From Escherichia phage vB_EcoP-CC2, in sequence record OX638291.1: 1,949 nt of DNA. One strand, 5' to 3'. Both the position numbers and the translations under genes were made by a program. The first letter of the stretch is position 1, and each line of letters starts with the position of its first letter. The notes under the pieces are model-generated. The model saw nothing but the letters and a program-made list of their open reading frames with translations. It was not told the origin of the DNA and ran no database searches. Positions 1 through 1,949 of the stretch are shown here, one piece after another.

Positions 1-127
1 ATTGGATCGTCCTTAAACTAACACCGAAATAATCAGCTAAGAATTTTTGGTCACATACAACAGCCCCACACGATTTATCTATATTTTGAGCAAAAAAAGA
101 ATATAGCCTAAATGCTCTGGGAACCTT
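1..127. repeat. Terminal direct repeat, left copy (identical to 1823..1949); consistent with a circular molecule or tandem multimer of period 1,822 bp
   Basis: Base-by-base comparison: 1..127 and 1823..1949 are identical over all 127 bp and both run to the window edges. A minus-strand reading frame continues in phase across the implied junction. Confidence 0.95.
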
Positions 128-289
128 CTCAGATATAGAGTCCAACATATTCCAGCCCGCCTTAGTAACCTGCGACCAGTCAGGTGGATTCAACCGATCT
201 CGTTTTTGCTTAGCACTTTTGGATTGATCTTGTGCCTGATGATCTCGCCGTTTTTGCTGTTCGAAATCTTCAAATTGCTGTTCCAGCAT
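1..289 (-). CDS. N-terminal part of the same junction-spanning gene (window-start copy); likely start ATG at 287..289; 1..127 duplicates 1823..1949
   Basis: Minus-strand frame with codons 287..289 down to 2..4 is open and in phase with 1947..1949 across the 1,822-bp period. ATG at 287..289 is preceded on the minus strand by 'AGGTAAGGATGCAAGT' (AAGGA Shine-Dalgarno-like, about 7 nt spacing). Unique part 128..289 encodes MLEQQFEDFEQQKRRDHQAQDQSKSAKQKRDRLNPPDWSQVTKAGWNMLDSISE. Joined product is about 177 aa. An alternative start at ATG 146..148 would give about 131 aa. Confidence 0.5.
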   Translation of the reverse strand, partial: MLEQQFEDFEQQKRRDHQAQDQSKSAKQKRDRLNPPDWSQVTKAGWNMLDSISEKVPRAFRLYSFFAQNIDKSCGAVVCDQKFLADYFGVSLRTIQ

Positions 290-307
290 ACTTGCATCCT
301 TACCTGC

Positions 308-403
308 AACGTTGTTTCGTACCTTACGAAATTTATATCGTACATTACGAAACAACACACGCAAACATGTTTGCGTATACACATGCAAATAACGTTTCGT
401 ATG
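308..403 (-). promoter_or_regulatory. Putative promoter/operator (possibly iteron-type oriV) region upstream of the Rep-like gene
   Basis: Seen directly: two 13-bp palindromic sites 'tcgtaccttacga' (317..329) and 'tcgtacattacga' (338..350), each embedded in a 15-bp direct repeat (317..331 and 338..352, one mismatch) spaced 21 bp apart; perfect 14-bp palindrome 'gcaaacatgtttgc' (361..374); inverted repeat 311..321 with 346..356; 'aacgtttcgta' (391..401) echoing 308..321; 8/9 match to DnaA box TTATNCACA at 375..383 ('gtatacaca'). Minus strand has a 'TATAAAT' -10-like element (complement of about 332..338). No convincing -35 found. Confidence 0.45.
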
Positions 404-409
404 TTGGTG

Positions 410-510
410 TCATAATGCTTTGATTTTTAAGAGAATGTCGATTTTTGCTCTAAAGATCTATCAAAGCACTTTTTTGCTACACAAGATTTAATTAGTTCAT
501 CGAACATTTG
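410..510. other. AT-rich intergenic tract, possible DNA-unwinding element of a vegetative origin
   Basis: Visibly AT-rich non-coding stretch between the repeat/operator cluster and the GC-rich module; contains two of four copies of the octamer 'tttttgct' (443..450, 471..478; others at 203..210 and 251..258). Functional role is inference only. Confidence 0.3.
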
Positions 511-600
511 GGGTGTCGGGGCGAAGCCCTGACCCAGTCACGTAGCGATAGCGGAGTGTATACTGGCTTACTCTTCTGCAAGCCTCTTCAGCCGTGATTT
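511..600. other. ColE1/pMB1-type bom (oriT)-like region with a candidate nic motif
   Basis: 'gggtgtcggggcgaagccctgacccagtcacgtagcgatagcggagtgtatactggcttact' closely resembles, from memory, the pBR322/ColE1 bom segment '...gggtgtcggggcgcagccatgacccagtcacgtagcgatagcggagtgtatactggcttaact...'. By analogy the nick would fall in 'ctgg/ctta' (about 566/567). Not verified by alignment. Confidence 0.5.
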
Positions 601-705
601 TGCCCGATTTCGCGCTCTCCACGTTCAACAGCTCGATCATGTTTTTGCAGTCCGTTCACCGCTAAAACGCCCCGCATCAGTGCGTACGTGCTCAATGTGG
701 TTTCC

Positions 706-772
706 GGTTCTCTTCCGCTTCCTCGCCCACTCGCTCACTAACGTTCGGTCGCTGGGGCTGCGGCGAGCGGTG
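706..772. other. Segment resembling the ColE1 primosome assembly site (pas/ssi) downstream of the ColE1 origin
   Basis: 'tctcttccgcttcctcgcccactcgctcactaacgttcggtcgctggggctgcggcgagcgg' parallels the pBR322/pUC backbone motif 'ctcttccgcttcctcgctcactgactcgctgcgctcggtcgttcggctgcggcgagcgg' (recalled). Functional assignment as a pas site is from general knowledge of ColE1 and is uncertain here. Confidence 0.35.
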
Positions 773-833
773 CCACCTCTCGCATGTTATCGGTGATTCC
801 GCTGTTGTTCTTTCGGGGATGAGTCGCCAGATA

Positions 834-864
834 GCTCTTCAAACGCTCTCAGAAGCTCTCAGAC
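834..864. repeat. Three tandem imperfect copies of a 10-11 bp unit (gctcttcaaac / gctctcagaa / gctctcagac)
   Basis: Read directly from the sequence; unit length is near one helical turn. Function unknown. Confidence 0.4.
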
Positions 865-1075
865 GCACGAAACGGGTTTTAAATGCCCATCAGGGCATGG
901 AAGGCGCGAAAAACGCTTACAGAGGGTTTTAGGAGGTCAGGCGCGCCGATACCCCTAACCAGGGGATTTCAGGTCGCCAGGAACCGCGTCAGCCCCCTGC
1001 AAAGCCCATTTGCACGGAATAGGCAGCCATGCGGTTGGTAGGTGGTCGTAGACCGTCGATGTTACAGCGACGGGG

Positions 1076-1130
1076 GTCTGGGGTTCTCCCCAGACGGTTT
1101 CCGGTTGCGCTCAAGGCGCTGCCGGAACCG
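1076..1130. other. Two adjacent GC-rich stem-loops (possible ssDNA or RNA structural element)
   Basis: Perfect 8-bp stem 'gtctgggg' (1076..1083) / 'ccccagac' (1088..1095) with loop 'ttct'; then an imperfect extended hairpin with arms 'cggtttccgg' (1095..1104) / 'ccggaaccg' (1122..1130) and inner 'gcgc'/'gcgc' stem. No U-tract follows on either strand, so not a canonical intrinsic terminator. Confidence 0.35.
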
Positions 1131-1277
1131 TGGCGGCTCGGTCGTTCTGGAAAACGGGGAGCAAAAAGACGCAAGGGATTTTGAGGCGGCAAAAGAGCAA
1201 TGCAGGATAGACAATCAACTAGAAATTGCATGCAATGTTCTGTGGATTGTCCGCCTACCGCTGGCTCTGTATGGCCA

Positions 1278-1565
1278 TCACTTTTTTCGATATTTATCTA
1301 ACTCAATTACAGGTGCAGGAATTTTTTTCTTCACACTTTTTTTTGGTTTTTGTATTTTTTCATTGTTGCTAACGACAAACATAATTTTCTTTCCATCTTC
1401 ATTGACAATATCAACGGGATTAAACTCCTTATCTTCACAATTCATATATAGATTTATTCCCATTGCATATTCGATATGATATTCATCAATTAACGAATCT
1501 ATTGATCTACATATTTCTAATTTTAGTTCTTCTAATTTCCAACGTGATTCATATTTAACTCTCAT
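1278..1565 (-). CDS. Hypothetical small protein (95 aa), function unknown; immediately downstream of the Rep-like gene on the same strand
   Basis: ORF track 1278..1565 (-), ATG start, TGA stop. Only 12 nt (1566..1577) separate it from the upstream stop, suggesting co-transcription or translational coupling. Weak SD-like 'TAGGT' about 9 nt upstream. Mixed acidic N-terminal half and Lys-rich C-terminal tail (KIQKPKKSVKKK...KYRKK). AT-rich like the upstream gene. I do not recognise the sequence. Confidence 0.5.
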   Translation of the reverse strand: MRVKYESRWKLEELKLEICRSIDSLIDEYHIEYAMGINLYMNCEDKEFNPVDIVNEDGKKIMFVVSNNEKIQKPKKSVKKKIPAPVIELDKYRKK

Positions 1566-1577
1566 AGCGCATCATAC

Positions 1578-1949
1578 CTAGTCCAAGTCATGATTAGATG
1601 TCTTAAGCGAGCCTTCAAACTCTTCTCTCCTAGAGAGCATGAGCCGCAACTTGCGATCAATAACGCCATCTTTTTGAGTTAATGTTTTTGCGTTAAACGC
1701 TGCATATTTTTTAGATTTATTATATCCGCGCCATACCTGATACGGATCTAACGCATAAGCATAATAGATACCTACTGGTATTTTCACGATGGCACCAATA
1801 CTTTCTAAATCTCCAATCCAATATTGGATCGTCCTTAAACTAACACCGAAATAATCAGCTAAGAATTTTTGGTCACATACAACAGCCCCACACGATTTAT
1901 CTATATTTTGAGCAAAAAAAGAATATAGCCTAAATGCTCTGGGAACCTT
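1578..1949 (-). CDS. C-terminal part of a junction-spanning gene for a putative replication-initiator-like HTH protein; 5' end truncated by the window edge and continues in 128..289
   Basis: The listed ORF 1578..1787 begins at an internal GTG; the same frame stays open upstream to the window end (manual translation ...KVPRAFRLYSFFAQNIDKSCGAVVCDQKFLADYFGVSLRTIQYWIGDLESIGAI-VKIPVGIYY...HDLD, stop TAG at 1578..1580). The motif 'QKFLADYFGVSLRTIQYWIGDLESIGAI' has the pattern of a (winged) helix-turn-helix as found in small plasmid/phage Rep proteins. Family assignment is inference; no search was run. Confidence 0.6.
   Translation of the reverse strand, partial: KVPRAFRLYSFFAQNIDKSCGAVVCDQKFLADYFGVSLRTIQYWIGDLESIGAIVKIPVGIYYAYALDPYQVWRGYNKSKKYAAFNAKTLTQKDGVIDRKLRLMLSRREEFEGSLKTSNHDLD
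1823..1949. repeat. Terminal direct repeat, right copy (identical to 1..127)
   Basis: Same comparison as for the left copy; offset between copies is exactly 1,822 bp. Confidence 0.95.

What the first reader, a model, noticed from the sequence alone, without database searches (positions are those of the whole stretch)
308..403. Highly ordered palindrome and direct-repeat array upstream of the Rep-like gene (operator/iteron candidate)
Two 13-bp palindromic sites (TCGTA-N3-TACGA) sit exactly 21 bp (two helical turns) apart on the same face of the helix, flanked by a perfect 14-bp palindrome, further inverted repeats and an 8/9 DnaA-box-like nonamer. This arrangement is expected for cooperative binding of a dimeric HTH protein (autoregulatory operator and/or origin iterons). 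It lies between the SD-supported start codon and an AT-rich tract, so it is a strong candidate for oriV plus rep promoter. The frame is also open through this region, so an N-terminally extended protein from a non-ATG start cannot be excluded.
Basis: seen in the sequence. Interest (0 to 1): 0.6.

Follow-up and report, generated by a model that had tools for sequence, protein, structure and literature searches.

The report
Rep-binding operator/origin array of small plasmid
The repeats are real and are most likely the sites where this 1.8-kb E. coli plasmid's own replication protein binds to repress its gene and start replication, as in the studied plasmid pKL1, so it is an ordinary member of a known kind.

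Summary
The window is a circular 1822-bp Col(MG828)-type E. coli plasmid read with a 127-bp overlap. The array at 315-401 is real and non-random. It holds eight TTKCGT/ACGMAA half-sites forming four dyads, centred 21, 23.5 and 24 bp apart, directly 5' of the minus-strand rep gene (ATG at 289).

The 177-aa product is a winged-helix protein, 42% identical to RepA of pKL1. pKL1 shares about 90-94% identical backbone DNA but carries a different rep/array cassette. [quoted passage not shown]

About 20 relatives show the same layout: AT-rich tract, IHF-like box, two distal dyads, two proximal dyads, rep. The half-site changes with the recognition helix (RTIQY/NW with TTTCGT, RTIQRW with TGTCGT, TRTIRxW with GGAAG). 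In the 73%-identical Salmonella relative the half-sites are conserved and the spacers are not.

The core interpretation (Rep operator and/or origin sites) is supported. The DnaA box is at chance level, the exact 21-bp phasing is not conserved, and the N-terminal coding extension and an RNA-structure role are unlikely. Binding and origin function are inferred, not shown. Verdict: new member of a known kind, modest interest.

The parts
315..331 (.). Dyad A (proximal): TTTCGTA-CCT-TACGAAA, a perfect 7-N3-7 palindrome centred at 323, lying -42 to -26 relative to the rep ATG.
   Evidence: The half-sites are conserved and the spacer varies in the Salmonella relative.
336..352 (.). Dyad B (proximal): TATCGTA-CAT-TACGAAA, centred at 344, 21 bp from dyad A. 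One arm is degenerate.
   Evidence: (D9).
359..376 (.). Dyad C (distal): the 18-bp perfect palindrome ACGCAA-ACATGT-TTGCGT, which uses the variant half-site TTGCGT. Centred at 367.5.
   Evidence: 0 of 300 shuffles. It is degenerate at the same position in the Salmonella relative, where dyad D is the strong one.
383..400 (.). Dyad D (distal, degenerate here): ATGCAA-ATAACG-TTTCGT, centred at 391.5. The aligned site in L030 is the good palindrome ACGAAACgtttGTTTCGT.
413..425 (-). IHF-box candidate AATCAAAGCATTA, an exact match to WATCAANNNNTTR and the only exact match in the plasmid.
   Evidence: Aligned positions in variants and in L030 have 0-1 mismatches. An IHF-like box of the type AATCAATAACTTA is seen in other family members. 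pKL1 oriV is reported to contain an IHF box.
404..505 (.). AT-rich tract (30% GC) between the array and the GC-rich backbone. Candidate unwinding region of oriV.
   Evidence: The same placement is seen across the family.
440..466 (.). 27-nt block ATTTTTGCTCTAAAGATCTATCAAAGC within the AT-rich tract. It contains a GATC site. All but one of its bases are identical in Salmonella plasmids that are only about 69% identical overall. Function unknown.
412..441 (-). Distal promoter-like site, TCGACA-N18-CATTAT. If used, the whole array lies in the transcribed leader.
   Evidence: 9 of 12 matches. The -35 element reads TTGACA in pMG828-1. The -10 element is poorly conserved.
332..364 (-). Proximal promoter candidate, TTGCGT(364-359)-N16-TACGAT(342-337), or TATAAA at 337-332. 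It overlaps dyads B and C. It is a weak match, at the position where relatives carry near-consensus promoters.
   Evidence: Read directly from the sequence. Relatives: L026 TTTACA-17-TATAAT, L024 TTGAAA-17-TAGAAT, L019 and L022 TTGAAC-17-TATACT/TAGTAT.
287..301 (-). Shine-Dalgarno sequence AAGGA (301-297) and the rep ATG start codon (289-287).
   Evidence: The RefSeq annotation of a 99.8% identical plasmid gives a 534-bp repL gene with the same start.
1..289 (-). 5' part of the rep gene, encoding a 177-aa winged-helix protein of the pKL1 RepA / 'RepL' type. The gene continues across the circular junction.
1578..1949 (-). 3' part of the rep gene, with its stop codon at 1580-1578. Positions 1823-1949 repeat 1-127 because the circle was read with an overlap.
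   Evidence: (D1).

Best explanation
The array at 315-401 is the DNA-binding target of the plasmid's own replication protein, a single winged-helix protein homologous to pKL1 RepA.

Inferred mechanism: Rep dimers, or higher oligomers, read eight alternately oriented TTKCGT half-sites arranged as four dyads. Occupancy of the two rep-proximal dyads (A and B) represses rep transcription, either by overlapping the proximal promoter or by acting as a roadblock to the distal one. This is autoregulation. The same array, together with the adjacent IHF box (413-425) and the AT-rich tract (404-505), forms the Rep-dependent origin. Rep binding plus IHF bending would open the AT-rich DNA for host helicase loading. 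Excess Rep would limit further initiation, as in the 'Rep-only' copy control reported for pKL1.

Shown here: the sequence anatomy, the homology, the family-wide architecture, and the co-variation of half-site with recognition helix. Inferred: binding itself, repression, origin activity and oligomeric state.
For: 1. The anatomy is real and non-random.

2. The protein has a confident winged-helix core (pLDDT 86-94). Its structural matches are dimeric wHTH repressors that bind palindromes, of the MarR/ArsR type.

3. It is 42% identical to pKL1 RepA (E = 4e-41). The comparison protein is WP_000469298.1, the pKL1 product.

4. [quoted passage not shown] Copy control is by Rep autoregulation and non-productive Rep binding at the origin (PMC12361487, citing Burian 1999).

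5. About 20 relatives carry 4-7 copies of a lineage-specific hexamer, in alternating orientation, within about 150 nt upstream of rep. They span 1.2-kb plasmids, Pseudomonas, Haemophilus, Zooshikella, Bartonella and a Vibrio phage. The copies are arranged as two distal tandem dyads plus proximal dyads.

6. In several relatives the proximal dyads sit in the spacer of near-consensus promoters, for example TTTACA-17-TATAAT.

7. The hexamer tracks the recognition helix. RTIQ(Y/N)W goes with TTTCGT in the window, Salmonella L030 and Haemophilus L034. RTIQRW goes with TGTCGT in L019, L022 and the distant L035. TRT(I/V)RxW goes with GGAAG or TAGGAA in five lineages.

8. Window versus Salmonella plasmids (Rep 73% identical, DNA about 69%): the arrays align with only single-base gaps, the half-sites are invariant, and the N5/N6 spacers and inter-site DNA differ.

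9. An exact IHF consensus and an AT-rich tract flank the array.

10. The array DNA occurs only in plasmids that carry this rep gene (40 PLSDB records).
Against: - There are no binding, transcript or origin-mapping data for this plasmid. The primary pKL1 papers could not be read, so the pKL1 facts are second-hand.
- No convincing sigma-70 promoter could be placed. The distal candidate scores 9/12 and its -10 is poorly conserved. The proximal candidate scores about 7/12.
- pKL1-type plasmids L010 and L011 have nearly identical wHTH regions but different distal repeats. In that clade the distal repeats may be read by another part of Rep, or not by Rep at all.
- Tiny relatives also carry other conserved GC-rich hairpins, so the origin cannot be assigned to the array region by elimination.
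- The window also carries a 700-bp backbone containing sequence that resembles ColE1 DNA (bom- and pas-like by my recollection of pBR322). Its role in replication is untested.
Confidence: 0.65

Rival explanations
1. The array is an operator only. It binds Rep and autoregulates rep, but it is not part of the origin. Initiation would occur elsewhere, for example at the conserved 27-nt block in the AT-rich tract or in the GC-rich backbone (506-1260).
For: - In relatives the proximal dyads overlap near-consensus promoters, which is classic operator geometry.
- The most conserved non-coding element is the 27-nt block at 440-466, not the array.
- The backbone 507-1217 is about 90-94% identical to pKL1 and is shared by plasmids with different Rep cassettes.
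- Tiny relatives have other conserved hairpin elements.
Against: - pKL1 oriV is reported to contain the Rep-binding sites upstream of rep.
- Four dyads spread over 86 bp, two of them 50-110 bp upstream of the start codon, are more than a simple operator needs.
- The distal tandem dyads next to the IHF box and AT-rich DNA are conserved family-wide.
- The 667-1217 module is absent from many plasmids of this Rep family.
Confidence: 0.2
2. The palindromes act at the RNA level. If transcription starts at the distal promoter, the roughly 115-nt leader folds into stable hairpins that attenuate transcription or mask the ribosome-binding site.
For: - The leader folds at -42.8 kcal/mol with z = -4.5, and no shuffle folded as well.
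- The 18-bp palindrome followed by a T-rich run scores as terminator-like on the minus strand.
- Part of the AGGTAAGGA region pairs in the MFE structure.
Against: - Any DNA palindrome array folds well as RNA.
- On the five-sequence alignment, 0 of 40 pairs show compensatory change, and many pairs are broken in the Salmonella lineage.
- The outer stem 311-314/353-356 is lost without compensation in pMG828-1-type variants.
- The strong dyad differs between lineages (C in the window, D in L030), which fits binding-site turnover rather than a conserved fold.
- The terminator-like stem has only 3 G-C pairs and a weak T-run.
Confidence: 0.07
3. The region is coding sequence. Rep would start at an upstream GTG or TTG (for example GTG 382, giving 208 aa), and the repeats would be incidental to an N-terminal extension.
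For: - The frame is open to 412 and has in-frame GTG/TTG codons.
- Automatic gene callers report a 208-aa product in a cluster of 443 member sequences (P0001).
- The frame stays open in the close variants.
Against: - No Shine-Dalgarno sequence precedes GTG 382 or the other candidates, whereas AAGGA sits 7 nt before ATG 289.
- All substitutions in this stretch among variants change the hypothetical amino acid.
- In the 73%-identical Salmonella relative the frame closes 19 codons upstream, and in most relatives within 4-25 codons.
- The extension has pLDDT below 50.
- Homologues align only from about residue 8-38 of the 177-aa protein.
- RefSeq annotates the 177-aa form.
Confidence: 0.03
4. The array is a rolling-circle double-strand origin. 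'RepL' would nick a hairpin in the array, as in the pSN2-type Firmicute plasmids that gave the Pfam family its name.
For: - There is a Pfam RepL match just above threshold (22.5 bits against a cut-off of 20.3).
- The palindromes could extrude as hairpins.
Against: - The protein is a small single winged-helix protein. It has no HUH or Rep_1/Rep_2/Rep_trans match and no nuclease-like fold match.
- Multiple dyads that differ by lineage and overlap promoters are not the anatomy of a nick site.
- The sources read here describe pKL1 as having an oriV with an IHF box and Rep-binding sites, not a nick site.
Confidence: 0.03

Closest known systems
pKL1 replicon of E. coli (1549 bp, NC_002145): RepA plus an upstream oriV/operator (Burian et al. 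1997, 1999, 2003)
   Same: - Homologous Rep: 42% identity, E = 4e-41.
- Same order of elements: backbone, AT-rich tract with IHF-type box, inverted and direct repeats, rep.
- Backbone DNA 507-1217 about 90-94% identical, and the same PlasmidFinder type, Col(MG828).
- Reported features of pKL1 that fit this plasmid: oriV upstream of rep with an IHF box and Rep-binding sites, and Rep-only copy control.
   Different: - The rep/array cassette is different. The half-sites are TTKCGT here and TGTCGCATCC- and ATGATGGCT-type repeats in pKL1, and there is no DNA similarity across the array.
- The IHF consensus is on the opposite strand relative to rep.
- This plasmid has an extra 95-aa ORF downstream of rep.
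- Rep has a longer, unrelated N-terminus.
- Nothing has been tested experimentally for this plasmid.
pMG828-1 (NC_008486, 1902 bp), reference of the PlasmidFinder Col(MG828) type
   Same: About 89% identical over the whole plasmid. The array 315-403 is nearly invariant, with 3 variable positions among the 7 variants.
   Different: - The outer inverted-repeat extension (GTTG...CAAC) is absent.
- One arm of dyad A reads TTTCGCA.
- The 18-bp palindrome has one mismatch.
- I found no functional study of it in the searchable library.
Iteron-type theta replicons (pSC101, R6K, pPS10, F)
   Same: A plasmid-encoded winged-helix initiator binds repeated sites next to an AT-rich tract and an IHF site, and represses its own gene at an inverted repeat. 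This comparison rests on general knowledge of those systems, not on a test here.
   Different: - The sites here are dyads with alternating half-site orientation, not three or more same-orientation iterons.
- Rep has a single winged-helix domain and no Rep_3-type match.
- There is no credible DnaA box.
RepL family (Pfam PF05732: pSN2-type Firmicute plasmids)
   Same: A marginal Pfam match over the wHTH core. RefSeq names the protein 'replication/maintenance protein RepL'. Weak tblastn matches to RepL of Staphylococcus hyicus and Aeromonas plasmids (23-30% identity).
   Different: Similarity is confined to about 85 residues and is close to threshold. I read no characterised RepL origin, so no comparison of the cis sites was possible.

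Membership tests
pKL1-type replicon (RepA with an upstream oriV/operator) | Rep protein homologous to pKL1 RepA | tested here: met
   BLASTP gives 42% identity over 156 residues, E = 4e-41. The comparison protein is WP_000469298.1, the product annotated on pKL1 NC_002145.
pKL1-type replicon (RepA with an upstream oriV/operator) | Inverted or direct repeats (Rep-binding sites) immediately upstream of rep | tested here: met
   Four dyads lie at -112 to -26. The same layout is seen in about 20 relatives, including pKL1. Binding itself was not tested.
pKL1-type replicon (RepA with an upstream oriV/operator) | IHF box and AT-rich tract in the origin region | tested here: met
   Exact WATCAANNNNTTR match at 413-425. 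Positions 404-505 are 30% GC. The feature is reported for pKL1 in PMC3832669.
pKL1-type replicon (RepA with an upstream oriV/operator) | Replication depends on Rep acting on this region; Rep autoregulates its gene; Rep forms hexamers | not testable with these tools
   Requires EMSA or footprinting, reporter fusions, minimal-replicon tests and sizing of the purified protein.
Classical iteron replicon | Three or more same-orientation direct repeats (iterons) of 17-22 bp | tested here: not met
   There is only one pair of 20-nt direct repeats (312-331 and 333-352, 85% identical, D9). The half-sites alternate in orientation.
Classical iteron replicon | Initiator of the Rep_3 / RepA-RepE-pi type with two winged-helix domains | tested here: not met
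   Pfam gives only a marginal RepL match and sub-threshold HTH matches. The model shows one winged-helix domain.
Classical iteron replicon | DnaA box in the origin | tested here: not met
   The best site, GTATACACA, matches 7/9 of the strict consensus. Four equally good relaxed matches lie elsewhere. The site is not conserved in L030.
RepL family (PF05732) | Pfam model match at or above the gathering score | tested here: met
   22.5 bits against a cut-off of 20.3, E = 9e-5, residues 59-142. This is marginal. There is no NCBIfam match.
ColE1-type RNA II / RNA I replicon | An RNA I antisense regulator and an RNA II primer region | tested here: not met
   No Rfam RNAI match, even at E <= 1. The resemblance of the backbone to the bom and pas regions of pBR322 rests on my recollection of that sequence and on MOB-suite 'mobilizable' calls for relatives, not on a test here.
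Rolling-circle replicon (double-strand origin) | HUH-type or Rep_trans-type nicking initiator | tested here: not met
   No such Pfam, NCBIfam or PHROG match. The fold is a generic winged helix.

The most novel reading that the evidence does not exclude
This Rep family is a natural set of orthogonal initiator/operator pairs with a simple, readable recognition code. Two residues of the recognition helix (RT-I-X1-X2-W) would set the hexamer half-site: QY/QN gives TTTCGT, QR gives TGTCGT, and RT/RN/RS gives GGAAG or TAGGAA. The same small winged-helix protein would read two dyad geometries. The distal dyads (ACGMAA-N6-TTKCGT) would serve origin activation and the proximal ones (TTTCGT-N5-ACGAAA) would serve repression. 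Whole rep/array cassettes would be swapped onto a conserved pKL1 backbone to escape incompatibility.
Probability: 0.3. Interest if true: 0.5.

Novelty: new member of a known kind. Interest (0 to 1): 0.3.

Why it matters
Col(MG828)/pKL1-type plasmids are among the smallest and most common plasmids in E. coli, Shigella and Salmonella genomes, yet their cis-acting sites are not annotated. Gene callers often swallow half of this array into an artificial 208-aa 'RepL'. Defining the four dyads, the IHF box and the true start codon corrects that annotation and gives a precise target for incompatibility and copy-number experiments. The link seen across the family between recognition helix and half-site could supply orthogonal minimal replicons or repressor/operator pairs. 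It does not change what is understood about plasmid replication.

Tried and rejected
- **Rfam, all families at E <= 1.** No RNAI or other credible RNA. The RAGATH-7 match over the array (19 bits against a gathering score of 112) is only the palindromes.
- **ColE1-type origin as the explanation.** Rejected for the array. Array DNA occurs only with this rep gene. The GC-rich module 667-1217 is missing from many plasmids of the Rep family.
- **DnaA box.** At chance level and not conserved.
- **Exact two-turn phasing as a constraint.** Rejected. Spacing is 21 bp here, 22 bp in the Salmonella relative, 23 bp in the Vibrio phage relative and 25-26 bp in other clades.
- **N-terminal extension.** Rejected as unlikely.
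- **Conserved RNA structure.** No covariation.
- **Assigning the origin by elimination in 1.2-kb relatives.** This failed because they carry other conserved GC-rich hairpins.
- **Solved-structure searches.** No specific relative by sequence or fold, only generic MarR/ArsR winged helices.
- **Structure prediction with the 177-aa protein.** The 208-aa cluster representative was used instead.
- **Primary pKL1 paper.** Burian 1999 is not held in the library.
- **Inverted repeat between the 27-nt block (442-464) and rep codons at 74-96.** Only 78% complementary here and weaker in L030, so probably chance.
- **ORF2.** PHROG and PADLOC searches found nothing.

Full report
**What the window is.** Positions 1-127 are repeated exactly at 1823-1949 (D1). 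The window is therefore a circular 1822-bp molecule read with an overlap. It is 99-100% identical to about 20 complete 1822-bp plasmids of E. coli and Shigella typed Col(MG828), and about 89% identical to pMG828-1.

Two genes lie on the minus strand. The first is a 534-bp rep gene that starts at ATG 289-287, crosses the junction and stops at 1580-1578. This is the same gene RefSeq annotates as 'replication/maintenance protein RepL'. The second is a 95-aa ORF at 1565-1278. The finding at 308-403 therefore lies directly 5' of rep, on the rep-sense (minus) strand.

**Check of the observation.**
- TCGTA-N3-TACGA lies at 317-329 and 338-350, 21 bp apart.
- The first site is a perfect 7-N3-7 dyad, TTTCGTAcctTACGAAA.
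- The '14-bp' palindrome is an 18-bp perfect palindrome at 359-376.
- An outer inverted repeat joins 311-321 to 346-356.
- Further half-sites lie at 383-388 (degenerate) and 395-400.

In 300 dinucleotide-preserving shuffles of the circle, none reached an 18-bp perfect palindrome. Only one had two same-arm 5-N3-5 palindromes within 100 bp. Four of the five TTTCGT/ACGAAA hexamers in the plasmid lie within 315-400.

Read in the rep orientation, the array is eight half-sites of the form TTKCGT/ACGMAA. They form four dyads centred at 323, 344, 367.5 and 391.5. The two proximal dyads are TTTCGT-N5-ACGAWA and the two distal ones are ACGMAA-N6-TTKCGT.

The 'DnaA box' is the weak item. It matches 7/9 of the strict consensus, is one of five equally good relaxed matches in the plasmid, and is not conserved in a relative.

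**The protein.** Pfam gives a marginal RepL match (22.5 bits against a cut-off of 20.3) and sub-threshold HTH matches. NCBIfam gives nothing.

An AlphaFold model built on seven homologues has a confident winged-helix core: helix, helix, strand, helix-turn-helix, two-strand wing, with pLDDT 86-94. The flanks are of low confidence. Foldseek against the PDB finds only generic dimeric winged-helix repressors of the MarR/ArsR type, at E of about 5e-3. Sequence search of the PDB finds nothing.

The informative relative is RepA of pKL1, at 42% identity over 156 residues, E = 4e-41. The protein I compared is WP_000469298.1, the only product annotated on pKL1 (NC_002145, 1549 bp). pKL1 is also typed Col(MG828). 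It shares the window's backbone 507-1217 at about 90-94% identity, but has no DNA similarity across the array and only patchy similarity (about 69%) in rep. This plasmid is therefore a pKL1 backbone carrying a different rep/array cassette plus an extra ORF.

**What is known for pKL1.** I could not read the primary papers. [quoted passage not shown] A review summarises pKL1 copy control as Rep autoregulation, with excess Rep binding non-productively to origin elements (PMC12361487).

In the window, the only exact match to the IHF consensus WATCAANNNNTTR lies at 413-425, next to the array. It is followed by a 30%-GC tract.

**Comparative evidence.** I collected relatives by three routes: tblastn against plasmids and phages, a protein search plus contig look-ups, and a genome-contig scan.

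In about 20 lineages the 150-170 nt upstream of rep has the same plan: an AT-rich tract with an IHF-like box, two distal tandem dyads 23-26 bp apart, then proximal dyads. These lineages include 1224-1291-bp circular plasmids, Klebsiella, Citrobacter, Pseudomonas, Arsenophonus, Haemophilus, Zooshikella and Bartonella plasmids, and a Vibrio phage.

In several relatives the proximal dyads sit inside near-consensus promoters:
- L026: TTTACA-17-TATAAT
- L024: TTGAAA-17-TAGAAT
- L019 and L022: TTGAAC-17-TATACT and TTGAAC-17-TAGTAT

Each lineage has its own hexamer repeated 4-7 times in alternating orientation, and that hexamer tracks the recognition helix:

| Recognition helix | Half-site | Lineages |
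|---|---|---|
| RTIQ(Y/N)W | TTTCGT | window, Salmonella L030, Haemophilus L034 |
| RTIQRW | TGTCGT | L019, L022, and the distant L035 |
| TRT(I/V)R(T/N/S)W | GGAAG / TAGGAA | L024, L026, L015, L036, L041 |
| RTIHTW | GGAAGT | L028 |
| RRTISRW | GAGACA | L016, L037 |

The closest non-identical relative is a pair of Salmonella contigs whose Rep is 73% identical and whose DNA is about 69% identical to the window. It aligns with the window array with only single-base gaps. There the half-sites are the invariant blocks, while the dyad spacers and inter-site DNA differ. The 'strong' distal dyad is D rather than C. This is the footprint of protein-binding sites under turnover.

There is one caveat. 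pKL1-type plasmids L010 and L011 have nearly identical winged-helix regions but different distal repeats, and they share only a proximal ATGATGGCT site. In that clade the distal repeats may be read differently.

**Rivals.**
- *Coding extension.* The frame is open to 412 with in-frame GTG/TTG codons, and gene callers report a 208-aa form. Against this, no Shine-Dalgarno sequence precedes those codons, and all substitutions among variants are non-synonymous in that frame. The frame closes within 4-25 codons in most relatives, and after 19 codons in the closest one. The extension is modelled with pLDDT below 50.
- *RNA structure.* The leader folds well, with z = -4.5, as any palindrome array would. 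On the five-sequence alignment no pair shows compensatory change and many pairs are broken. The outer stem is lost without compensation in pMG828-1-type variants.
- *Rolling-circle origin.* The protein has no HUH-type features.
- *Operator only.* This remains the main rival. I could not place the origin computationally, because small relatives carry other conserved hairpins and the window has a large GC-rich backbone of untested function.

**Promoter.** Two candidates exist on the minus strand. The distal one is TCGACA-18-CATTAT at 441-412. It would put the whole array in the leader. The weak proximal one is TTGCGT-16-TACGAT, overlapping dyads B and C, at the position of the strong promoters in relatives. 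Neither is well conserved in the Salmonella plasmids. Either geometry is compatible with autorepression.

**Verdict.** The DnaA box, the strict helical phasing and the coding extension are not supported. Binding, repression and origin activity remain inferences. This is a new member of a known kind, the pKL1-type replicon, and is of modest interest.

Noticed in passing
window 1-127 = 1823-1949: The window is a complete circular 1822-bp plasmid read with a 127-bp terminal overlap. The rep gene therefore spans the artificial ends and is not listed as an ORF by a linear scan.
   Followed up: yes
window 507-1217 (GC-rich, 57-58% GC): This backbone module is about 90-96% identical to pKL1 and to other 1.45-1.6-kb plasmids that carry quite different rep/array cassettes, including one with an unrelated 146-aa HTH protein (L012). 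Positions 508-575 resemble the pBR322/ColE1 bom (oriT nick) region, and 705-775 resemble the ColE1 'tcttccgcttcctcgc...' region downstream of the origin. Both resemblances rest on my recollection of pBR322. The pattern suggests cassette exchange of rep plus operator on a conserved backbone.
   Followed up: partly
window 440-466: The 27-nt block ATTTTTGCTCTAAAGATCTATCAAAGC, which contains a GATC site, is invariant in all close variants. All but one of its bases are identical in Salmonella plasmids that are only about 69% identical overall. It is the best-conserved non-coding element near rep and its function is unknown. Related AGATAG/ATAGATCT motifs occur at the same place in other family members.
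   Followed up: partly
window 1278-1565, minus strand: A 95-aa ORF (27% GC) starts 12 nt after the rep stop codon. RefSeq annotates it as hypothetical, and it has no Pfam, NCBIfam, PHROG or PADLOC match. It is absent from pKL1-type plasmids.
   Followed up: partly
window 1210-1251: An imperfect palindrome, GACAATCAACTAGAAATTGCATGCAATGTTCTGTGGATTGTC, lies at the junction between the shared backbone and the variable cassette. In pKL1-type plasmids the outer arms (GACAATC...GATTGTC) are kept while the inner sequence differs. It may be a terminator or a module-junction or recombination site.
   Followed up: no
PLSDB record NZ_CP090002.1 (hit H1): A 100% identical 1822-bp plasmid is deposited under Staphylococcus aureus, while nearly all other full-length hits are Escherichia or Shigella (one 1901-bp variant is from Klebsiella). 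This probably reflects contamination or mislabelling of that assembly.
   Followed up: no
protein cluster P0001 versus the RefSeq annotation: Automatic gene calls give a 208-aa Rep starting at GTG 382, inside the array (443 member sequences). Several other 'homologues' (P0002, P0013, P0015, P0004) are frameshifted or chimaeric calls.
   Followed up: yes
L032 (Vibrio phage 1.233.A, MG592597) 556-595 and 665-681: A 36.8-kb Vibrio phage encodes a homologue 40% identical to the window Rep, annotated 'replication protein'. It has two CGACAGAACCTGTCG dyads 23 bp apart upstream and a third at the start codon. The same Rep/dyad module therefore also occurs in a phage genome.
   Followed up: partly
L013, L017, L024, L026 (non-coding regions): Tiny relatives (1224-1488 bp) share a conserved GC-rich hairpin element of the form CGTCAAGGTCAAGCC...GGTCGCCTATGGCGAACCTTGACC. 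It is unrelated to the window backbone and may be a single-strand initiation or transfer site.
   Followed up: no
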